Below are positions 3,281-53,563 of a DNA stretch of 64,000 nucleotides, in pieces. A program made the position numbers and the translations under genes. The notes beneath the pieces are model-generated. The model saw nothing but the letters and a program-made list of their open reading frames with translations. It was not told the DNA's origin and made no database searches. The DNA is from an uncultured Candidatus Saccharibacteria bacterium (GTDB taxonomy: Bacteria; Patescibacteriota; Saccharimonadia; CAILAD01; GCA-016700035). Location of the stretch: contig CAZYFT010000001.1 of assembly GCA_964646575.1 (NCBI GenBank), positions 8,118 to 72,117 of the forward strand, written 5' to 3'. Each line of letters begins with the position of its first letter. Positions within the stretch are counted from its first letter, which is position 1.

Positions 3281-4516
3281 TTATAAATAGGTATTAATAT
3301 AGGCTTGGTATGTTTCCTTAAGGTCTTTAGAGGCACCAAAGGGAACACGTTTAATTATCTGGGACTCCATATTCATCATGAGTGCCGGGGTAAGTGTGAA
3401 CTCACCATATGTATTGTTAATAGCATCGGTTGCTTGAGCGACCTGTCGCTGACGAGTGGTTACGGTATCAAAAAGCTCTAGTTGTTCAGGCATGGTGGGT
3501 TCGAGTGCGAAAACAGAGATACCGAGTTTAGCAATTGGTCGTTTACTAGGGCGTTGAGCGAATAATTGCATAATCGTTGTAAAAATATCATTAGTTGAGT
3601 AAATTGTTCGATGGGTTTTAGTCGATTTATGCCAGTAGCTATGGTTGTTGTAGAGAAGCCAAAGGTGAGCACCACGAGCAATCGAATTATGGCGACGCAG
3701 ACGACGGCCAGTCTTTTCAGAAAGTTTCATGAGGTAGCGGGCTAGCTCTTGAGGGTTTTCGGTGGCAATATGAATTGCAAAGTCATTACCGAAGCTCTTA
3801 CGTCCGTAATTTATACTGTCGACCTCCCAGCCTCGCAGTCGATGATACCAGCGATAACCCTCGATGCTACGAAACACTTTGCGATGGAGTGTTTCTGCAG
3901 AGGCGCTAAGGAAATCGAGGGGAGTAAATATACTATATGCATTTAAGCGTGCTTCATAGCGGTAGTTGATACCGCAAAGATCGCGCAACGAGAGTTTCCT
4001 GAGGGTGGTTTCGAGATTTTGCGCATTGATGATGTCTAGGCCATCCGGCTTATGAAGGCCGGCAGCTGTTTTTGCGAGGAACCGGTTGGTTCCGATTCCA
4101 ATATTGACTCGCATATAATTGCCAAGCTCTTTGCGGATGGCCTGTTTGATCTTTCTAGCCACAACCGACAGCGGCGACTTGTGTATCTGTCGGCTCTTAG
4201 AGAAATCGATAACGAACTCATCGATTGAAAGTGGCGTGAGATCGCTTGTGTAGCGATAAAGGAGAGCGTAGAGGCGAGCATTTACATAGAAGTATTTATC
4301 CGGATCGGGCATAAGGAAAATCATATCGGGACAAATAGTTCGGGCTGTACGGACAGGGGTTCCTACGCCGATACCAAGTGCTTTGGCTTCATACGATGCG
4401 GCAAGAACGATACCTCCCGGTGTAGTGTAAGAACACACACCCACGGGTTTGTCTCGTAGCAGGGGGTTGGCTTGCTGCTCAATTGTCGCAAAGGCACTAT
4501 TGAGGTCGATATGCAT
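3281..4516 (-). CDS. Y-family (DinB/UmuC/UvrX-type) translesion DNA polymerase. The likely true start is the internal Met (MHIDLNSAF...); the ORF track extends to 4567.
   Basis: N-terminal MHIDLNSAFATIE (conserved D..F) and catalytic SIDEFVIDFS (DE). Length about 410 aa. Little-finger-like C-terminus. Confidence 0.8.
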   Translation of the reverse strand: MHIDLNSAFATIEQQANPLLRDKPVGVCSYTTPGGIVLAASYEAKALGIGVGTPVRTARTICPDMIFLMPDPDKYFYVNARLYALLYRYTSDLTPLSIDEFVIDFSKSRQIHKSPLSVVARKIKQAIRKELGNYMRVNIGIGTNRFLAKTAAGLHKPDGLDIINAQNLETTLRKLSLRDLCGINYRYEARLNAYSIFTPLDFLSASAETLHRKVFRSIEGYRWYHRLRGWEVDSINYGRKSFGNDFAIHIATENPQELARYLMKLSEKTGRRLRRHNSIARGAHLWLLYNNHSYWHKSTKTHRTIYSTNDIFTTIMQLFAQRPSKRPIAKLGISVFALEPTMPEQLELFDTVTTRQRQVAQATDAINNTYGEFTLTPALMMNMESQIIKRVPFGASKDLKETYQAYINTYL

Positions 4517-4550
4517 AACTTGCGGCTCGGCTTGATTGAGATTTGGGGCT

Positions 4551-4808
4551 TCATTGAGGTAGGCCATCGGATATTGCCTCTAGAGTCCATTGTAGGCTCT
4601 CTGTGTTATAGCTGAGGCGCAGGGCTAATGCACCGGTAGAGCCTTCAAAGATGTGATGCAGTACACGGCCTTCACGCTTAGGGTGCACAAGCCCGATTTG
4701 ATTCATTGAGTAATAGCGATTGCGCCACTTAATTTTTACTGGGACCACAATGCCGCGCCCACGTTTCGAGACGGTAAGTACATCGACTACTTCGTTAACT
4801 TCATGCAT
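4551..4808 (-). CDS. Small protein immediately upstream of the Y-family polymerase, in the positional equivalent of UmuD/YolD. No S24 peptidase Ser-Lys motif is recognisable. Start placed at the Met of MHEVNEV (ORF track 4551..4844).
   Basis: 85-97 aa ORF in operonic arrangement with the polymerase. No recognisable family signature by eye. Confidence 0.35.
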   Translation of the reverse strand: MHEVNEVVDVLTVSKRGRGIVVPVKIKWRNRYYSMNQIGLVHPKREGRVLHHIFEGSTGALALRLSYNTESLQWTLEAISDGLPQ

Positions 4809-4821
4809 AGAATAATTATAC

Positions 4822-4836
4822 GAACATACTACGAAC
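4822..4836. promoter_or_regulatory. GAAC-N7-GAAC direct repeat (cGAACatactacGAACat) in the divergent promoter between the Y-polymerase operon and the SRAP gene. Candidate SOS/LexA-type operator of the direct-repeat class.
   Basis: Read directly from the sequence at 4822-4836. The GAAC/GTTC-N7-GAAC/GTTC direct-repeat architecture is known for LexA boxes in some lineages (e.g. Alphaproteobacteria). Its location between two DNA-damage genes is suggestive. Confidence 0.3.
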
Positions 4837-4869
4837 ATTTTCAAGTGTTAAATCGTGTATTATGGGGGT

Positions 4870-5550
4870 ATGTGCGGACGATTCGCTTTAGCAGATACTA
4901 AGGAATTAAAGAGCCGATTTCATACTCAGAATGCGGCTCCAAGGGACGTGCGCCCAAACTATAATGCTGCTCCAACCCAAAGCTTGCCAGTGATTGTGGA
5001 GGTCGGTGGCCGAGCTGAGATTAAGGTGATGCATTGGGGAATTGTCCCAGCATGGGCAAAGGATAAGCCACGATTTGCTTTTTCTACGTTTAATGCTCGG
5101 GCAGAATCTTTGCTGGAGAAGCCAATGTGGAAGAAAGTATTCCCATCAAGGCGTTGTTTGGTTCCCGCCACTGGTTTTTATGAGTGGCAAAAGAAGGATA
5201 ACGAGACGCGCCCATATTACATTCATGTAGGAGAACGTGAGATTTTTGTAATGGCAGGTCTGTATGATGAATGGGTAGATACAGAAACCGGAGAGGTGTT
5301 TGATTCTTTTACGATTATAACCACGCGACCGAATTCGGTGATGCGTAAGATACATGATCGAATGCCCGTAATCCTTGATGTTGACGAAGAGGCGACGTGG
5401 CTCGATGCAGATGTGAGTAGTCCGGAGGATTTACTCGCCATGTTAGACCCTTATGATGAAAAAGATACCCTAGCTTATCCAGTAGGTCAAAAAGTGGGGA
5501 ATGTTCGTAATAATTCGCCCGATCTCATCCAGCCGCTAGAGACTGCTTGA
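4870..5550 (+). CDS. SOS-response-associated peptidase (SRAP/YedK/HMCES family, abasic-site crosslinking protein).
   Basis: Begins MCGRF (invariant catalytic Cys2 after Met) with the rest of the SRAP/DUF159 fold. The ORF track starts at an upstream GTG (4855); the true start is probably the ATG at 4870. Confidence 0.8.
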   Translation: MCGRFALADTKELKSRFHTQNAAPRDVRPNYNAAPTQSLPVIVEVGGRAEIKVMHWGIVPAWAKDKPRFAFSTFNARAESLLEKPMWKKVFPSRRCLVPATGFYEWQKKDNETRPYYIHVGEREIFVMAGLYDEWVDTETGEVFDSFTIITTRPNSVMRKIHDRMPVILDVDEEATWLDADVSSPEDLLAMLDPYDEKDTLAYPVGQKVGNVRNNSPDLIQPLETA

Positions 5551-5590: not shown

Positions 5591-5660
5591 GGGTCCTTAG
5601 CTTAGTTGGCTGTCGCGATACTTTGCGCCGTAGGAGAACGCGCTCTAGCCCATAAAAGAG
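5591..5660 (+). pseudogene. tRNA-Val-derived fragment mosaic. A 21-nt direct copy of the tRNA-Val 5' end (20/21 identical) lies next to an 11-nt inverted copy of its D-arm. It has no 3' acceptor half and is not a functional tRNA.
   Basis: gggtccttagcttagttggct (5591-5611) versus gggtccttagctcagttggct in the tRNA-Val at 5697. gcgctctagcc (5640-5650) is the reverse complement of ggctagagcgc in the same tRNA. Confidence 0.4.
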
Positions 5661-5696: not shown

Positions 5697-5773
5697 GGGT
5701 CCTTAGCTCAGTTGGCTAGAGCGCTTCCTTGACGTGGAAGAGGTCAGAGGTTCGAGTCCCCTAGGACCCACCA
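5697..5773 (+). tRNA. tRNA-Val (anticodon GAC), with encoded CCA.
   Basis: Cloverleaf folded by hand: acceptor gggtcct/aggaccc, D-stem gctc/gagc, anticodon stem cttcc/ggaag with loop ttGACgt, T-loop ttcgagt, discriminator A, CCA. Confidence 0.85.
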
Positions 5774-5982: not shown

Positions 5983-7785
5983 ATGAGCAAAGATATTCAT
6001 GCAATGCGACATAGTGCTGCACATGTATTGGCAGCTGCACTGCAAAAGCTCTATCCAGGAGCAAAGTTTGGGGTTGGTCCGGTTATTGAGTACGGCTTCT
6101 ATTATGATGTCGCTTTCCAAGAAGCAATTTCAGATAAGGATCTGAAGAAAATTCAAAAGGAGATGCGCTCAATTGTGAAGCGTAATCTGCCAATTGAACG
6201 TGAGGAATGGCCGATTGAGCGGGCAATAGACTACTTTGCAAATAATGATCAGCCTTTCAAAGTCGAGCTATTGCGAGATTTACAACAGCATGGCACAACA
6301 AGCATAAAAAATATAGACTCTTCTGACTTAGGAATTGATGACACTGATGAAAAAATAACAACGGTTTCAGTATATAAAATCGGTGACTTTGTAGATTTAT
6401 GCCGTGGCCCTCATGTAGTAAGCACAGGAGAAGTAGGCGCATTTGAGCTAACTCGTCTGGCCGGAGCGTATTGGCGTGGTGATGAGGCGAGAGATCAATT
6501 GCAGCGTGTGTATGGCATTGCGTTTGAGTCTGAAGAGGAGCTCGAAAAGCACAAGGCTATGTTAGAGCTTGCTAAAGAGCGAGACCACCGCAAGTTGGGG
6601 CGAGAGCTAGATCTGTTTACTTTTTCAGAATTGGTAGGCCCTGGCTTACCACTATGGACTCCGAGAGGCACAGTAATTCGCAATGAGTTAGATGCGTTTA
6701 TACAAGAGTTGCGGGCGGAGTATGGCTTTGAAGAGGTGACGATTCCGCATATCACAAAGAAAGAACTCTATATGCGGAGCGGGCATTGGGATAAGTTTGA
6801 AGATGAGCTATTTAAGATTACTTCGCGTGATGGGCATGAGTTTGCTTTAAAGCCAATGAATTGTCCGCATCACACCCAGATTTTTGATTCTCGACCACGG
6901 AGCTATCGAGAGATGCCGGTACGTTATCGCGAGACAACCATGGTGTATCGCGATGAACAAAGTGGTGAGCTGCATGGGCTTTCGCGTGTTCGGTCAATTA
7001 CACAGGATGATGCTCACACGTTTTGTCGACCAAGTCAGGTAGAAGATGAAGTAATGAACGTTTGGAATGTGATTGAGCAATATTGGAAGGCATTTGGAGT
7101 AAGCTTGCGAGTGCGTCTATCTACGCATGATCCGAAGAATATGAAGGGTTATCTCGGGACTGAAGAGCAGTGGGAGTCGGCGGTTGCACAATTGCAATCA
7201 GTAATTGTGCGTCAGGGCGTAGAGTTTGAACTTGGAGAAGGTGAGGCGGCTTTCTACGGACCCAAGATCGACTTTATAGGTTCGGATGCGCTCGGTAGAG
7301 AGTTTCAAGCGTCAACTGTTCAGCTAGACTTTAATATGCCAGAACGTTTTGATTTGGCGTGTATTGATGAGAGTGGAGTTCGCGAGACTGTTGTGATGAT
7401 TCACTGCGCCATCGCTGGCTCGGTCGAGCGTAGTATTGTCTTGCTCCTCGAACATTTTGGAGGTAATTTCCCTGTTTGGCTTGCTCCACAACAAGTAGCG
7501 GTTCTGCCAATATCCGAGAAATTTATAAAATATGCTGATAAAATTACAACAGTATTGAAAGAGCAGGGTGTGAGAGTCGATGTGAGTGCTGAGAACGAAT
7601 CGCTAGGCAAGCGTATACGGTCGGCAGAAGTGAGAAAAATACCATATACGCTCATTGTCGGAGAGAAAGAAGTGGCTGACGAGACGGTGGCTGTACGAAG
7701 ATTTGGTGAGGGTGATTTGGGAGCCATGAAAGCAGATGAGTTTACAGAAAAAATCACCAAAGAAATTCACAACCGCAGTCTCTAG
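5983..7785 (+). CDS. thrS: Threonyl-tRNA synthetase (class II). It lacks the N-terminal TGS domain but retains the N2 editing-type domain.
   Basis: Motifs include HSAAHVLAAA, DHRKLGRELDLF, MNCPHHTQIF, TQDDAHTFC and GPKIDF. Anticodon-binding C-terminus. Confidence 0.9.
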   Translation: MSKDIHAMRHSAAHVLAAALQKLYPGAKFGVGPVIEYGFYYDVAFQEAISDKDLKKIQKEMRSIVKRNLPIEREEWPIERAIDYFANNDQPFKVELLRDLQQHGTTSIKNIDSSDLGIDDTDEKITTVSVYKIGDFVDLCRGPHVVSTGEVGAFELTRLAGAYWRGDEARDQLQRVYGIAFESEEELEKHKAMLELAKERDHRKLGRELDLFTFSELVGPGLPLWTPRGTVIRNELDAFIQELRAEYGFEEVTIPHITKKELYMRSGHWDKFEDELFKITSRDGHEFALKPMNCPHHTQIFDSRPRSYREMPVRYRETTMVYRDEQSGELHGLSRVRSITQDDAHTFCRPSQVEDEVMNVWNVIEQYWKAFGVSLRVRLSTHDPKNMKGYLGTEEQWESAVAQLQSVIVRQGVEFELGEGEAAFYGPKIDFIGSDALGREFQASTVQLDFNMPERFDLACIDESGVRETVVMIHCAIAGSVERSIVLLLEHFGGNFPVWLAPQQVAVLPISEKFIKYADKITTVLKEQGVRVDVSAENESLGKRIRSAEVRKIPYTLIVGEKEVADETVAVRRFGEGDLGAMKADEFTEKITKEIHNRSL

Positions 7786-24053: not shown

Positions 24054-24401
24054 GTGCAGAAGGAGGCTCGCGTGGCACGCAAAAAACAACATTTACGATA
24101 TCAGGCCAAAAAAGGCCGGATGCATACTGTGGCCTCGGCCGACGAAGTCTCAACTCCTGCTGCAGCGTCTCAAGTTGAGACTGAAAAAAGAGATAGCGTT
24201 GATAAAAAAACAATCACTAAAGAGCAAAAACAAGAGTTTACTAAGTTGCCAGAGAGTGAAACTCAGTTTGTTCGCAGGGAGATAATCTATATCGGCTTTA
24301 TCGCATTGGTACTGCTTGCTTTTTACTTAGTGATCTTTCTTGTATTCCGCTTTACAGCTGTGGATGAGTGGCTCAGTGGACTTATTCAGCTAAAAAACTA
24401 G
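24054..24401 (+). CDS. Small hypothetical protein: lysine-rich N-terminus, single C-terminal TM.
   Basis: ORF with TM IIYIGFIALVLLAFYLVIFLVF. No homology recognisable. Confidence 0.3.
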   Translation: MQKEARVARKKQHLRYQAKKGRMHTVASADEVSTPAAASQVETEKRDSVDKKTITKEQKQEFTKLPESETQFVRREIIYIGFIALVLLAFYLVIFLVFRFTAVDEWLSGLIQLKN

Positions 24402-25929
24402 CTGTTTGAGAGAGGCTTTTTCGAGTGAGCCCATTCCTAAACTGAAGAGCCTCAGAGAGGTGCACTGCTTCAATTTTTGATGATCTTTCTAAATCAGCAA
24501 TGGTTCGGCTAATTTTTAAGACGCGAGCTGCGCCTCTTTGTGATATGTGTTGTCTGCGCAGGGCATCCTCTAGAAGATTTTGCGCATCGCTAGAGGCGCC
24601 ACAAAAAGTAGTAAGTTCATGAGAGGGGATTTCACTATTTGTTGTTATTTGATGCATCTTAAAGCGGTGTGCCTGCAAGTCTCTAGCAAGCTCTACCCGT
24701 TTGAGGATCGCGTTAGATGATGTAGCTTCTGAGGCGGTCTCGAATGGACTTGTAATGGACGGTTCAGTAATGGAGCAATGCATATCAAAGCGATCTAGGA
24801 GTGGTCCGGAGATTCTGGCTTGGTAGCGGTTTATGGTGGCGGTGCTGCATGCACAAGCTTGTTTCGCGGACCCGGCGTATCCACATGGACACGGGTTCAT
24901 CGCGGCAATGAGTATGAATTTAGCCGGATAGGTGAGGGCGTTTTGCGCGCGAGAAATATGTACTTCTCCATCCTCAATCGGTTGACGGAGTGCTTCTAAT
25001 ACCGATCGACGAAATTCTGGCAGCTCATCCAGGAATAGTACTCCACGGTGCGCCAAGGTTACTTCTCCGGGCTTTGGTATTTGCCCGCCACCTACGAGTG
25101 CAACGTCGCTAGAAGTGTGGTGGGGTGACCGGATGGGTCTTGATTGAAGGTGCTGGGCACTGGGGTTATGGATGCCGTGGAGGTAGGCTACTTCGGTAAG
25201 CTCGTCTGTATCAAGTTCTGGGAGAATTGTAGGAAAAGCATGAGCTAGGAGGGTTTTACCGCTGCCGGGCGGGCCAATAAATAGCACATTGTGGCCACCA
25301 GCGGCAGCGATTTCTAGCGCTCGCTTAGGCACTTCCAGGCCTTTTATCGATGAAAAATTAACTAATGATGTTTTTTTATCAACATTTTGTGTTGGTTCAG
25401 GATTGTCTGGGCATGGGGCTTCATCGATAAGCCAGCGATACAGTTCCCGGAGATTTTTTATGCGAACCACTGTCGCTTGCGTTTTGATTGATTCTGGAAT
25501 GGGCGGGGCATCACACGCAATAATGAGAGTTTTGCATGCTACTTGTTGAGCTGAAATAACACTGGCCGCACTATCACGAGCTGGCCTCAGAGATCCATCT
25601 AATGAGAGCTCCGCAGAAAACAATATATCTTCGGGCTGTGGTGGTATTTGCTTTGATGCAATCAAGATACCAACTGCCATTGCGAGTTCAAAGCCAGTTC
25701 CGTACTTAGCAGTGTCGGCAGGTGCAAGGTTGAGAACGATTTTACGCATAGGAAATTCTAGCCCGCTATTACGTATGGCGCTTCGTAATCTTTCACGTGA
25801 CTCCTCGACACTTTTTGTGGGTAGGCCGACAAGTGATATTCCGGGCAGACCGGCAAAAATATCGGTTTCAATGGTGATGCGGTGGGGTCGCGCACCATAG
25901 TGGGTGATGGCATGTGTGCGAGCAAGCAT
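24382..25929 (-). CDS. comM: Mg-chelatase-like AAA+ ATPase, YifB/ComM family.
   Basis: Walker A NVLFIGPPGSGKTLLA, Walker B VLFLDELPEF, and an N-terminal Lon-protease-like subdomain. Confidence 0.85.
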   Translation of the reverse strand: MLARTHAITHYGARPHRITIETDIFAGLPGISLVGLPTKSVEESRERLRSAIRNSGLEFPMRKIVLNLAPADTAKYGTGFELAMAVGILIASKQIPPQPEDILFSAELSLDGSLRPARDSAASVISAQQVACKTLIIACDAPPIPESIKTQATVVRIKNLRELYRWLIDEAPCPDNPEPTQNVDKKTSLVNFSSIKGLEVPKRALEIAAAGGHNVLFIGPPGSGKTLLAHAFPTILPELDTDELTEVAYLHGIHNPSAQHLQSRPIRSPHHTSSDVALVGGGQIPKPGEVTLAHRGVLFLDELPEFRRSVLEALRQPIEDGEVHISRAQNALTYPAKFILIAAMNPCPCGYAGSAKQACACSTATINRYQARISGPLLDRFDMHCSITEPSITSPFETASEATSSNAILKRVELARDLQAHRFKMHQITTNSEIPSHELTTFCGASSDAQNLLEDALRRQHISQRGAARVLKISRTIADLERSSKIEAVHLSEALQFRNGLTRKSLSQTASFLAE

Positions 25930-25993
25930 AGCTGTGTTCCTGGTTAATTACGAACACTATACCGAACAAAAAACTACACCACAAGCTTGAGAA

Positions 25994-51269: not shown

Positions 51270-52262
51270 ATGAAAAAACGCGTATTATCAGGAATTAAGC
51301 CAACCGGAGATGTCCATCTTGGAGGATATCTTGGAGCGATGCGTGAGTGGCCTAAATATCAGTCGCCCGACAATGAGGTGTTTTATTTTATCGCCGATTT
51401 GCATGCCCTCAATACTCGCCCTAAACCTAGTGAACTACGAGATAAGACTTATGATTTGGTGGCATGGCTACTGGCCCTCGGTATCGACAGCGAACGCAAT
51501 CCAATCTATTTACAGTCGCAGATCCCGGAGCACAGTGAACTGTGTTGGCTCTTAAATAACTTCGTTACCATGGGTGAGCTTTCGCGTATGACCCAATATA
51601 AGGACAAGGCCAAGAAAGGCGGCTCTGAGGGCCAGCTAGTGGCGTTATTTACGTACCCTGTATTAATGGCTGCTGATATCTTGCTGTATAGTGCTGATGA
51701 GGTGCCAGTAGGTGAGGATCAGACGCAGCATGTAGAGCTCACTCGAGATATTGCACAGCGCTTTAACGGTGTATATGGGGATGATTTCTTGAAGCTGCCA
51801 GCCTTTACAAACCCGGCTCATTCAGCACGAGTGATGATGCTAGATGATCCACTGCGCAAGATGAGTAAAAGTGAAGGAGGGGATGGCTGTGTGTATCTAG
51901 CCGATTCTGATGAGGTTATTATGCGCAAGTTTAGCCGGGCTGTAACTGATTCTGAAGCAACCGTGCGCTTCGATAGGGGGAAACAGCCAGGAGTGAGTAA
52001 TCTTCTCGAGATATTTGCTGCTATAAAGGGTAAGGATACGGAGGAGCTTGAGAGGGAATTTGCAGGAGTAGGTTACGGGGACTTCAAGAAAGCGGTTGCT
52101 CAGGCTGTGCTCACCGAGCTAGGACCAATCAAGGCAGAATATAGCCGCCTGCGCTCAGATGAGGGGTATTTGGATCGCGTTCTTCAGCGTGGTCGAGAGC
52201 GGGTAAGTAGTGAGGCTCGTTCAAGACTCGTTGAGTTGAAGCAAACAATTGGACTATTGTAA
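51270..52262 (+). CDS. trpS: Tryptophanyl-tRNA synthetase (class I).
   Basis: HIGH-type GIKPTGDVHLGGYLG, KMSKS (RKMSKSEG), YPVLMAADIL. Confidence 0.9.
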   Translation: MKKRVLSGIKPTGDVHLGGYLGAMREWPKYQSPDNEVFYFIADLHALNTRPKPSELRDKTYDLVAWLLALGIDSERNPIYLQSQIPEHSELCWLLNNFVTMGELSRMTQYKDKAKKGGSEGQLVALFTYPVLMAADILLYSADEVPVGEDQTQHVELTRDIAQRFNGVYGDDFLKLPAFTNPAHSARVMMLDDPLRKMSKSEGGDGCVYLADSDEVIMRKFSRAVTDSEATVRFDRGKQPGVSNLLEIFAAIKGKDTEELEREFAGVGYGDFKKAVAQAVLTELGPIKAEYSRLRSDEGYLDRVLQRGRERVSSEARSRLVELKQTIGLL

Positions 52263-52314
52263 AAAATACACCAGCTTTTTACAGAGTAAACAGTCGAAAA
52301 ATACCCAAAACTTA

Positions 52315-52343
52315 TTGACAAAGCATAAGGACTTTGCTAAACT
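52315..52343 (+). promoter_or_regulatory. Near-consensus sigma70 promoter (TTGACA-N17-TAAACT) inside an ORF-free region.
   Basis: ttgaca aagcataaggactttgc taaact, read directly from the sequence. Confidence 0.45.
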
Positions 52344-52413
52344 AGAGTCAATCTAGTTCATTCAAAACCAAAAACAAAAACCAAGTTACATTCCTTTTCT
52401 ATAAATAACGCCG

Positions 52414-52454
52414 CAAGTCGCTTGGTCTCAATAAAGAGCGACTTGTATTTTTTA
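52414..52454 (+). terminator. Intrinsic terminator (9-bp stem plus T-run) about 100 nt downstream of the promoter. Together they define a candidate ~100-nt small RNA.
   Basis: CAAGTCGCTtggtctcaataaagAGCGACTTGtattttttat. Confidence 0.5.
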
Positions 52455-52875
52455 TAGCTGAACAGTAGGGTAACTCCGACCTGTAGACACCCCCCTTGTC
52501 TCGGGTCGGGCTTCCCCTACTGTTCTAGGGTGCCTCATCGAGAGAGGCGACCATTCCCGACAGATAAATCCTTGTTTAAAGCACGAGAAGACGAGCATCC
52601 CGCACGCCTCTTTATACGCTTTAAGTCTGATCAGTCAGTCCAAACAACCGAAACTGATCAACGAAGATTTGCCTAGACGAATGGTAGGGAAACCGGAGCA
52701 GACGAAAAAAAAACAACTAAACGCACCTTTCGTCTCGAACAAAGTCTGCACCAAAACTTGGATACCTAGGCTTCATCAAGCTTAGATACCCCTCACCGGG
52801 GCAGCACGTGCCAATTGAATCTTTCTCTTTAGGGCAGATGTGACTGCCCCGTAACCACTTACTTACTCATCAGAA

Positions 52876-52904
52876 ATCACCCGTTTGTCAGGGTGATTTT
52901 TTTG
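52876..52904 (+). terminator. Intrinsic terminator.
   Basis: ATCACCCgtttgtcaGGGTGATttttttt. Confidence 0.55.
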
Positions 52905-53101
52905 TTAGCGAATTGCAGTCCTGTGAGAGCACGTGCATTGTACGCTCTGGCCTCAAACTTATACGGTGCAGGGTCTGCATTGCCATAATGGCAAAAAGGG
53001 AAGAGCGGAATTATTGGGCAATTAGTTTACTCATAAGTATGAATAAAAATAGTAGTCAAAACAAAAATCGAAAATAGAAAAATATATTTAGTGTTCATAT
53101 T

Positions 53102-53563
53102 TTGGCAAAAAGTATTCAAATGTGGATACTGTGGAAAAAGCATTGGAAAATAGAGATAATAGAGTCTATGCGAGACGCATCCTACAAACAGCTAGGGCTC
53201 TACATATCTGTCACAATTTTTTCGCTCATTCTGTCTTTGAGTGTAGTGGCATTTCTCTTGCTAGCAACTTCACCGAGAGACATAGGTGCTTTAGGCGTAA
53301 CAGTTTGGTTTATAGGCCTATTTGTACTGGCTACATCTTCTATTTTGTTGGTGCGTTATAATTTTGGAAGACATCGACATCCTGAGCCCCAGGAGCGTTT
53401 TGCGGTGTATAAACGCTCGCTCAGAGGGAGTGCCGTGATGGGGCTTTTTTTTGCAATTGCTCTTGCGATGCAAAGTTTGAGGATGCTGAATCTGGGGGAT
53501 ATACTGCTCTTCCTGCTAACTCTTGCTATAATTGAACTATATTTCCGCACGAAAAAATCATGA
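53102..53563 (+). CDS. Small membrane protein (3-4 TM), hypothetical. Its stop overlaps the pheS start.
   Basis: Hydrophobic helices SVTIFSLILSLSVVAFLLL, VWFIGLFVLATSSILLV and GLFFAIALAM. No motif. Confidence 0.4.
   Translation: MAKSIQMWILWKKHWKIEIIESMRDASYKQLGLYISVTIFSLILSLSVVAFLLLATSPRDIGALGVTVWFIGLFVLATSSILLVRYNFGRHRHPEPQERFAVYKRSLRGSAVMGLFFAIALAMQSLRMLNLGDILLFLLTLAIIELYFRTKKS

What the first reader, a model, noticed from the sequence alone, without database searches (positions are those of the whole stretch)
3281..5550. Divergent DNA-damage-tolerance module with a GAAC-N7-GAAC direct repeat in the shared promoter
A Y-family translesion polymerase (preceded by a small UmuD/YolD-position protein) is transcribed divergently from an SRAP/YedK-family gene (MCGRF...). 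The SRAP-TLS polymerase association is established knowledge.

In the ~60-bp shared intergenic region the sequence cGAACatactacGAACat (4822-4836) forms a GAAC-N7-GAAC direct repeat. That is the architecture of direct-repeat-type LexA operators (GTTC-N7-GTTC on the opposite strand). No lexA is visible in the window. The site could define the SOS-like regulon motif for this lineage, or bind a different repressor.
Basis: partly seen in the sequence, partly recalled or inferred. Interest (0 to 1): 0.55.

Follow-up and report, generated by a model that had tools for sequence, protein, structure and literature searches.

The report
LexA-type operator in divergent SOS promoter
A perfect 9-bp direct repeat between a translesion-polymerase operon and an SRAP gene in an uncultured Saccharibacteria-like genome is almost certainly a LexA (SOS repressor) operator of the already described direct-repeat type, so the finding is real but ordinary.

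Summary
On the polymerase strand it fills the 18-nt spacer of a near-consensus promoter (TTGAAA / TATAAT). In eight diverged relatives, TTCG-N7-T(T/A)CG is invariant at that position while the flanks differ.

An exact scan of 185,579 reference genomes found the 17-base core next to lexA or an S24 gene in 5 of 80 listed hits. It was strongly over-represented in Patescibacteria. In Uhrbacteria-type genomes it sits in the lexA promoter at the same spacer position, ahead of a lexA-small protein-polymerase cluster.

The best explanation is one LexA operator repressing two back-to-back, apparently leaderless promoters: small protein plus DinB-like polymerase, and SRAP.

A direct-repeat LexA motif in Patescibacteria is already published (I could not read its consensus), as is the LexA/ImuB-C/DinB/SRAP gene neighbourhood. 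This is therefore a new member of a known kind.

The main gap is that I could not show a lexA gene in the window's own lineage.

Side observations:
- LexA-DNA methyltransferase fusions.
- A non-coding locus in Saccharibacteria that carries the repeat.
- An unassigned small partner protein of the polymerase.

The parts
3281..4567 (-). Y-family (DinB-like) translesion DNA polymerase, 428 aa. It overlaps the small gene by 17 nt, so the two form an operon.
   Evidence: Pfam IMS 1.2e-35 and IMS_C 1.1e-16. The best NCBIfam models are DNA polymerase IV, all below their cut-offs; the UmuC model scores only 59 bits. HIDLNSAF and SIDE motifs are visible in the translation.
4551..4808 (-). 85-aa partner protein of the polymerase. 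It belongs to an unnamed family and is a candidate standalone ImuB-C-like domain.
   Evidence: No Pfam or NCBIfam hit. 19 database homologs are all annotated hypothetical. 45 homologs in fetched loci all lie directly upstream of the polymerase. The AlphaFold model is all-beta, pLDDT 66. W74 is invariant. One distant member matches DUF6504 at 22.9 bits against a 24.2-bit cut-off.
4815..4820 (-). -10 box TATAAT of the small-protein/polymerase promoter, 6 nt before the ATG (leaderless inferred).
   Evidence: Promoter scan: TTGAAA-18-TATAAT, 11 of 12 matches. The box is conserved in 8 relatives.
4819..4838 (-). The operator. It reads ATGTTCGTA-GT-ATGTTCGTA on the polymerase strand, a 9-bp direct repeat with an 11-bp period, and is the predicted LexA binding site.
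   Evidence: 29.8 bits. Footprint. The same core sits next to lexA genes elsewhere.
4839..4844 (-). -35 box TTGAAA of the small-protein/polymerase promoter.
   Evidence: TTG is invariant at this position in 8 relatives.
4858..4863 (+). Putative -10 box TATTAT of the SRAP promoter, 6 nt before the ATG (leaderless inferred). Its -35 region would overlap the proximal repeat copy.
   Evidence: A TATAAT/TAAAAT-type hexamer lies 6-8 nt before the SRAP ATG in about 18 distinct related sequences. The promoter scan did not call it, because the -35 is weak.
4870..5550 (+). SRAP/YedK-family protein, 226 aa, starting Met-Cys.
   Evidence: Pfam SRAP 1e-73 over the full length. MCGRF, GFYEW and HDRMP motifs are visible in the translation.

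Best explanation
The repeat is an SOS operator. A LexA repressor encoded elsewhere in the genome is predicted to bind the two GTTCG half-sites, which lie one helical turn apart.

The site fills the spacer between the -35 (TTGAAA) and -10 (TATAAT) boxes of the small-protein/polymerase promoter. It also overlaps the -35 region of the back-to-back SRAP promoter. One bound repressor would therefore shut off both divergent transcripts.

After DNA damage, RecA-stimulated self-cleavage of LexA would release both. That would give co-induction of a DinB-like translesion polymerase, its small accessory protein, and SRAP, which shields abasic sites. Both mRNAs appear leaderless, with the -10 box 6 nt before each ATG.

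Shown here: the sequence, the promoter match, the conservation, and the association of the same motif with lexA genes in other genomes. Inferred: binding by LexA in this organism, repression, damage induction, and leaderless starts.
For: 1. The site fills the 18-nt spacer of an 11-of-12 consensus promoter.

2. In 8 distinct promoters of the same clade (60-91% small-protein identity), an ungapped alignment anchored on the -10 box keeps TTG at -35 and keeps TTCG and T-T-CG 11 bp apart inside the spacer. The flanks diverge.

3. An exact scan of genome contigs with TGTTCGTANNATGTTCGTA gave 87 hits, against roughly 70 expected by my uniform-composition estimate. Of the 80 listed, 13 are in Saccharibacteria MAGs and 2 more in other Patescibacteria. 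L115 (Hebobacteria) lies inside an ORF and is probably a chance match. The two free bases are AA in 9 of those 16.

4. Five of the 80 hits abut a lexA or S24 gene. Random placement would give about 0.01.

5. The lexA promoters of L099, L132, L065 and L150 share one layout: -35, a GTT(C/T)G-N6-GTTCG repeat in the spacer, TATAAT, then a second inverted repeat before lexA. The spacer repeat has the same position and orientation as in the window.

6. In L099 and L132, lexA is followed by homologs of the same small protein and polymerase.

7. The other targets are SOS-typical: a ribonucleotide reductase in L104, a Y-family polymerase in L116, and an autoregulated LexA-methyltransferase gene.

8. 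Literature: GTTC-N7-GTTC is the Alphaproteobacteria LexA box (PMC4951493, PMC8565304). Patescibacteria LexA is cited as recognising a direct repeat (PMC7739468). SRAP is a LexA target in other phyla (PMC7739468, PMC8565304). LexA/ImuB-C/DinB/SRAP neighbourhoods are described in PMC3765255.
Against: - No lexA is in the 64-kb window, nor in any locus fetched from the window's own clade or from Saccharibacteria-labelled MAGs.
- Source names for about 30 LexA cluster representatives gave Uhrbacteria, Parcubacteria, Shapirobacteria, Saganbacteria and Gemmatimonadales, but never Saccharibacteria.
- Most Saccharibacteria hits lie in a non-coding gap of unknown function, not at a recognisable SOS gene.
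- More distant relatives (about 50% polymerase identity) keep the SRAP/small/polymerase module with no such repeat.
- I could not read the published Patescibacteria consensus.
- The SRAP promoter has a weak -35 and was not called by the scan.
Confidence: 0.8

Rival explanations
1. The repeat is a real operator, but in Saccharibacteria a regulator other than LexA reads it. That could be a lineage-specific repressor that took over LexA's sites after lexA was lost, or a factor that also acts at the non-coding locus next to ftsQ.
For: No LexA was found in any Saccharibacteria-derived sequence examined. None of the named LexA relatives is from Saccharibacteria. About 11 of 13 Saccharibacteria hits are at a non-coding locus that also has its own palindrome and a DnaA-like box. 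Non-homologous SOS repressors are documented in Bacteroidetes (PMC8565304).
Against: The half-site, spacing and promoter position are the same as at autoregulated lexA promoters in other Patescibacteria classes. The identifiable targets are SOS-typical: a translesion polymerase, SRAP and a ribonucleotide reductase. I sampled only about 8-20 kb per genome, so absence of lexA from the sample is weak evidence.
Confidence: 0.12
2. The repeat has no regulatory role. It would be a chance or recently duplicated 11-bp sequence in an AT-rich promoter spacer.
For: The bare GAAC-N7-GAAC pattern occurs at chance frequency in the window. Only one site exists in 64 kb.
Against: The extended motif is expected 0.1 times. 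The half-sites are invariant across 8 diverged promoters, whereas spacer sequences normally drift. The same core recurs at lexA promoters and is strongly over-represented in Patescibacteria.
Confidence: 0.03
3. The repeat is a structural promoter element (spacer or UP-like) or a binding site for an activator of the two leaderless promoters, not a repressor site.
For: It lies inside the promoter spacer, and a -10 box abuts the second copy in every case. Similar promoter-embedded copies occur in Pirellulales MAGs.
Against: A site that fills the -35/-10 spacer would typically occlude RNA polymerase. In lexA promoters a second copy covers the transcription start region, which is a repressor layout. 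Distant relatives have working promoters for the same module without the repeat.
Confidence: 0.05

Closest known systems
Direct-repeat LexA box GTTC-N7-GTTC of Alphaproteobacteria (also reported for Acidobacterium capsulatum)
   Same: Two GTTC cores in direct orientation with 7 intervening bases (an 11-bp period). The site sits in promoters of SOS genes, including translesion polymerases, and in the lexA promoter itself (PMC4951493, PMC8565304; reference list of PMC7739468).
   Different: Here the conserved half-site is longer (TGTTCGTA) and the host is a Patescibacteria-like organism. Whether the LexA proteins are specifically related was not tested here.
Patescibacteria LexA-binding motif (Sanchez-Osuna, Barbe and Erill 2017, Environ Microbiol 19:3465)
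   Same: Later papers from the same group cite it as a direct-repeat LexA motif for this superphylum (PMC7739468, PMC8565304). The lexA promoters I recovered from Uhrbacteria-type genomes carry the window's motif.
   Different: The paper is not held, so I could not check that its consensus equals TGTTCGTA-N3-TGTTCGTA. I also could not check whether Saccharibacteria, SRAP or this small protein were part of its regulon. My recollection that its abstract links the LexA to Acidobacteria LexA is unverified.
LexA / standalone ImuB-C / DinB / SRAP gene neighbourhoods (Aravind, Anand and Iyer 2013, PMC3765255)
   Same: A small beta-rich protein with a conserved C-terminal tryptophan is encoded next to a DinB-type polymerase, often with LexA and SRAP. 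The window has small-polymerase divergent from SRAP. L099 and L132 have lexA-small-polymerase.
   Different: Homology of the window's small protein to ImuB-C is not demonstrated. The only sequence link is one sub-threshold match of a distant member to DUF6504.
umuDC of E. coli and yqjW-yqzH / uvrX-yolD of Bacillus subtilis
   Same: A LexA-repressed operon with a small protein gene preceding a Y-family polymerase gene (yqjW-yqzH tandem LexA sites are mentioned in PMC4951493).
   Different: The small protein has no S24 peptidase domain and no YolD match. The polymerase scores as DinB-like, not UmuC-like.

Membership tests
Direct-repeat LexA operator (GTTC-N7-GTTC class) | Two GTTC cores in direct orientation separated by exactly 7 bases | tested here: met
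   4822-4836 on the plus strand as GAAC-N7-GAAC. It extends to a perfect 9-mer repeat at 4819-4838.
Direct-repeat LexA operator (GTTC-N7-GTTC class) | Position overlapping the core promoter elements of a DNA-damage gene | tested here: met
   It fills the 18-nt spacer of TTGAAA/TATAAT upstream of the polymerase operon. It lies at about -51 to -32 relative to the SRAP ATG.
Direct-repeat LexA operator (GTTC-N7-GTTC class) | Conservation of the half-sites in orthologous promoters | tested here: met
   TTCG and T-T-CG are invariant in 8 diverged promoters. They are absent from the more distant clade.
Direct-repeat LexA operator (GTTC-N7-GTTC class) | The same motif in the promoter of lexA itself (autoregulation) | tested here: inconclusive
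   Met in other genomes: L099, L132, L065, L082, L150 and the LexA-methyltransferase gene in L147. It could not be tested for the window's genome because its lexA, if there is one, was not found.
Direct-repeat LexA operator (GTTC-N7-GTTC class) | A LexA protein encoded in the same genome | not testable with these tools
   None in the window or in the clade's fetched flanks. The other contigs of the source MAG cannot be retrieved.
Direct-repeat LexA operator (GTTC-N7-GTTC class) | Specific binding by purified LexA and derepression after DNA damage | not testable with these tools
   This needs an experiment.
SRAP / YedK (PF02586) | Full-length SRAP domain with an N-terminal Met-Cys and conserved Glu and His | tested here: met
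   Pfam 1e-73 over 1-212 of 214 profile positions. MCGRF, GFYEW and HDRMP are present in the translation. The catalytic roles of these residues come from my own knowledge.
Y-family DNA polymerase | IMS catalytic core plus the IMS_C little-finger domain, with acidic catalytic motifs | tested here: met
   Pfam IMS and IMS_C. HIDLN and SIDE motifs. The protein is below every NCBIfam Pol IV or UmuC equivalog cut-off, so the subfamily is unassigned.
UmuD | S24 peptidase domain in the small protein upstream of the polymerase | tested here: not met
   No Peptidase_S24 hit in the small protein. The LexA/S24 profile search of all ORFs finds nothing there.
YolD-like (PF08863) | Match to the YolD family profile | tested here: not met
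   No YolD hit in any of 12 diverse members, even at E up to 10.
Standalone ImuB-C domain (Aravind 2013) | Small, mainly beta-strand domain | tested here: met
   The AlphaFold model has six strands and no helices. The core pLDDT is about 80 and the overall value is 66.
Standalone ImuB-C domain (Aravind 2013) | [quoted passage not shown] | tested here: inconclusive
   W74 is invariant across 12 diverse members. No basic position is invariant, although a basic residue (R or K) occupies the column of R64 in 11 of the 12 members, with Q in the twelfth.
Standalone ImuB-C domain (Aravind 2013) | Operon with a DinB-type polymerase, often with LexA and SRAP | tested here: met
   The window and 45 loci. 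lexA-small-polymerase in L099 and L132.
Standalone ImuB-C domain (Aravind 2013) | Detectable sequence or profile homology to the C-terminal domain of ImuB | not tested
   No ImuB-C profile was available. There is only a sub-threshold DUF6504 match of one member. No PDB sequence or fold match was found.

The most novel reading that the evidence does not exclude
Saccharibacteria may have lost canonical LexA while keeping its operator, which would now be read by an unrelated regulator. In that case the main target of the regulon would not be a repair gene. It would be the conserved, unannotated non-coding locus beside murG-ftsQ, which is bracketed by two copies of the repeat and could be a damage-controlled small RNA or a sense/antisense pair. 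The polymerase's small partner would then be a new accessory-factor family replacing UmuD.
Probability: 0.12. Interest if true: 0.6.

Novelty: new member of a known kind. Interest (0 to 1): 0.3.

Why it matters
The site adds one well-footprinted operator and two likely regulon members (a DinB-like polymerase operon and SRAP) to the SOS network of an uncultured, host-dependent bacterial lineage. Regulation in such lineages can only be inferred from sequence. It gives a concrete 20-bp probe and a weight matrix for scanning Saccharibacteria genomes.

It does not change current understanding. Direct-repeat LexA boxes, LexA control of translesion polymerases and SRAP, and this gene neighbourhood are all published.

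The side observations may matter more than the finding itself. These are the LexA-methyltransferase fusions, the repeat-bracketed non-coding locus, and the uncharacterised polymerase partner.

Tried and rejected
1. Reading the 2017 Patescibacteria SOS paper. It is not held, and literature searches for Saccharibacteria plus LexA returned nothing relevant.

2. Finding a Saccharibacteria LexA. I tried tblastn and a LexA profile against every held ORF, two homolog searches, one exhaustive representative search and three cluster-name look-ups. None gave a Saccharibacteria-labelled LexA. This is absence of evidence only.

3. Bacteroidetes LexA motifs as an explanation for the roughly 25 Bacteroidetes hits. 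[quoted passage not shown] Many of those hits are tandem arrays of an 11-bp unit.

4. The Saccharibacteria non-coding gap as a known RNA. No Rfam hit at gathering or E-value thresholds.

5. The same gap as oriC. Unlikely, since each gap has only one or two DnaA-like boxes.

6. The same gap as a coding region. No conserved ORF of 30 aa or more.

7. The small protein as UmuD or YolD. Rejected.

8. Fold assignment of the small protein. Foldseek against the PDB gave nothing below E = 0.4, and a profile search of PDB sequences gave nothing.

9. Additional operator copies in the window near uvrD-like, rmuC or comM-like genes. None scored above the shuffled background.
Full report
**What is in the sequence.**
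The region contains three genes:
- 3281-4567(-) encodes a 428-aa Y-family polymerase (Pfam IMS 1.2e-35, IMS_C 1.1e-16).
- 4551-4808(-) encodes an 85-aa protein with no Pfam hit. It overlaps the polymerase gene by 17 nt.
- 4870-5550(+) encodes a full-length SRAP protein starting MCGRF.

The repeat is actually longer: TACGAACAT-AC-TACGAACAT at 4819-4838, two perfect 9-mers with an 11-bp period.

The bare tetranucleotide pattern is not enriched in the window (3 hits against 1.4 expected). The extended pattern is expected 0.1 times even with 3 mismatches allowed. With a weight matrix from 31 related sites, this site scores 29.8 bits. The next best window site scores 13.0 bits, and shuffled-window maxima range from 9 to 20 bits. 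No lexA or recA lies in the window.

**Promoter anatomy.**
On the polymerase strand the sequence reads TTGAAA-ATGTTCGTAGTATGTTCG-TATAAT. This matches the promoter consensus at 11 of 12 positions, with an 18-nt spacer that the repeat fills. The small gene's ATG follows the -10 box by 6 nt.

On the other strand a TATTAT hexamer lies 6 nt before the SRAP ATG. A TATAAT/TAAAAT-type hexamer lies 6-8 nt before the SRAP start in about 18 distinct related sequences. In the window's clade the small gene likewise has TATAAT 6-9 nt before its ATG.

I infer that both divergent transcripts are leaderless. I also infer that the SRAP -35 region overlaps the proximal repeat copy, so one bound protein could block both promoters. 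These are inferences; the scan did not call the SRAP promoter.

**Phylogenetic footprint.**
The window matches metagenome contigs from several sources. Its closest labelled relative is a Candidatus Saccharibacteria MAG (L108), with 75% polymerase, 81% small-protein and 60% SRAP identity.

I compared eight distinct promoters from this clade: the window, L108/L049, L007/L144, L008, L009, L010, L141 and L143. An ungapped alignment anchored on the -10 box keeps TTG at -35. Inside the spacer it keeps TTCG and T-T-CG exactly 11 bp apart. The surrounding sequence and the genomic neighbourhood differ.

More distant relatives (about 50% polymerase identity, L011-L048) keep SRAP back-to-back with the small-polymerase pair. 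Their intergenic region is only about 33 bp, and they have no credible repeat. The operator is therefore a feature of a sub-clade, not of the module as such.

**Who binds it.**
I scanned one genome per species (185,579 species) for TGTTCGTANNATGTTCGTA. This gave 87 hits, of which 80 were listed. My uniform-composition estimate of the chance expectation is about 70. The hits are far from random:
- Thirteen are in Saccharibacteria-labelled MAGs. Two more are in other Patescibacteria, and several unlabelled MAGs show the same context. L115 (Hebobacteria) lies inside an ORF and is probably a chance match.
- The two unconstrained bases are AA in 9 of those 16.
- Five of the 80 listed hits abut a lexA or S24 gene.

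The five lexA/S24 cases are:
- L099 (Uhrbacteria): the motif is 10 nt upstream of a gene with LexA_DNA_bind and Peptidase_S24 domains.
- L132 and L065: LexA 75% and 65% identical to L099's. They are labelled Gammaproteobacteria but are of the Uhrbacteria type.
- L082: a spirochaete LexA.
- L092: an S24-polymerase pair.

The lexA promoters of L099, L132 and L065 share one layout, as does L150, whose LexA is only 52% identical. The layout is a TTATCCACA box, a -35, a GTT(C/T)G-N6-GTTCG repeat in the spacer, TATAAT, and then a second inverted repeat before lexA. The spacer repeat has the same position and orientation as in the window.

In L099 and L132, lexA is followed by homologs of the window's small protein and polymerase. 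Other sites lie in the promoter of a ribonucleotide reductase that also has NrdR-type boxes (L104), and 42 nt upstream of a Y-family polymerase in a Planctomycetia MAG (L116).

This is the pattern expected of an autoregulated LexA box.

**What is already known.**
- GTTC-N7-GTTC is the LexA box of Alphaproteobacteria (PMC4951493, PMC8565304).
- PMC7739468 cites the 2017 Patescibacteria study, together with the Acidobacterium study, as cases where LexA evolved recognition of a direct repeat.
- SRAP (COG2135) is reported as LexA-regulated in Balneolaeota and Bacteroidetes (PMC7739468, PMC8565304).
- Aravind et al. (PMC3765255) described neighbourhoods that combine standalone ImuB-C, DinB, LexA and SRAP.

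I could not read the 2017 paper. The identity of its consensus with this site is therefore unverified.

**The small protein.**
It is neither UmuD (no S24 domain) nor YolD (no hit in 12 diverse members at E up to 10). It has no NCBIfam hit, and its 19 database homologs are all annotated hypothetical. Its 45 homologs in the fetched loci all lie directly upstream of the polymerase.

The AlphaFold model is all-beta (six strands, pLDDT 66, core about 80) and has no significant PDB fold match. W74 is invariant across divergent members. One distant member matches Pfam DUF6504 nearly end to end at 22.9 bits, just below the 24.2-bit cut-off.

These features fit the published description of standalone ImuB-C. 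Homology is not shown.

**The weak point.**
I found no lexA in the window, in the flanks of its relatives, or in any Saccharibacteria-labelled locus. Named LexA relatives were from Uhrbacteria, Parcubacteria, Shapirobacteria, Saganbacteria and Gemmatimonadales. Only a small part of each genome was sampled, so this is weak negative evidence. It does keep alive the rival that another regulator reads the site in this lineage.

**Verdict.**
It is a new instance of a known kind of element controlling known SOS functions, so interest is modest.

Noticed in passing
L064 1164-1846; L070 2810-3610; L084 6869-7560; L110 2560-3349; L126 4919-5488; L131 290-887; also L055, L079, L081, L088, L091, L112: In Saccharibacteria MAGs the repeat (mostly TGTTCGTA-AA-ATGTTCGTA) marks a 570-800 nt non-coding gap between convergent genes, just after murG-ftsQ. 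Every complete gap has a conserved palindrome GTCG(C/T)A-N12-TGCGAC, a GC hairpin, one or two DnaA-like boxes, and a repeat copy 180-250 nt from the palindrome. Several gaps have a second copy 320-410 nt on the other side. There is no Rfam match and no conserved ORF. It may be an unannotated RNA locus under the same operator.
   Followed up: partly
P0268, P0277, P0278, P0287, P0289, P0295, P0326, P0327, P0364, P0403; L147 4001-5848: About 40 of the best 150 LexA cluster representatives are complete LexA proteins (DNA-binding plus S24 domains) fused to DNA methyltransferases of different classes (N6_N4, N6/Eco57I-type, C5). One fusion is a single called gene seen in 106 collection blocks, in a neighbourhood with HicA, AbiEii, NYN and SNase genes. 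It has a TTCG-N7-TTCG repeat and a TGTGGAAAA box in its promoter. I found no literature on these fusions.
   Followed up: partly
L099 about 6577-6585; L132, L065, L150 about 5900; L147 about 3987-3997: A perfect or near-perfect DnaA box (TTATCCACA or TTTTCCACA) lies next to the LexA operators in Patescibacteria lexA promoters, about 10-15 nt upstream of the -35. This suggests joint control of lexA by DnaA and LexA.
   Followed up: no
L060, L062, L063, L072, L077, L096, L098, L102, L111, L120, L122, L127 and others: Many Bacteroidetes hits are tandem arrays of 3-5 copies of an 11-bp unit, ATGTTCGTACC. This is unrelated to the published Bacteroidetes SOS motifs. Their function and flanking genes were not examined.
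   Followed up: no
L057, L085, L100, L117 (Pirellulales MAGs): The same repeat is embedded between a -35 (TTGCAC, TTGAAC or TTGACT) and a TATAAT box, followed by a conserved GGTGC(A/G)GGGG segment. It occurs three times in one MAG. The downstream genes were not identified.
   Followed up: no
L104 2120-2400: A Saccharibacteria ribonucleotide reductase gene has the repeat overlapping its -10 box, with two NrdR-type boxes downstream. This suggests dual LexA-type and NrdR control. An NrdR gene also follows the polymerase in L144 and L146.
   Followed up: partly
L011-L048 (for example L012 about 2940-2975): A more distant clade keeps SRAP divergent from the small-polymerase pair with only about 33 bp between the start codons. 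Here the small gene has a Shine-Dalgarno sequence and there is no repeat. The module is older than its LexA-type control.
   Followed up: partly
window 25930-25968 (minus strand): TGTTCGGTATAGTGTTCGTA, which is GTTCG-N7-GTTCG with a 12-bp period, lies about 20 nt upstream of the ComM-like gene 24382-25929(-). It is one base off register and scores only 7.3 bits, so it may be chance.
   Followed up: no
window 5591-5660: A tRNA-like fragment (GGGTCCTTAGCTTAGTTGGC...) resembles the 5' part of the tRNA-Val gene at 5697-5773 and lies about 100 nt upstream of it. ARAGORN does not call it. It may be a decayed duplicate.
   Followed up: no
window 52262-53102 and 53121-53138: An 840-nt stretch has no ORF of 130 aa or more. 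At its end are two adjacent DnaA-like boxes (GTATCCACA and TTTTCCACA) on the minus strand.
   Followed up: no
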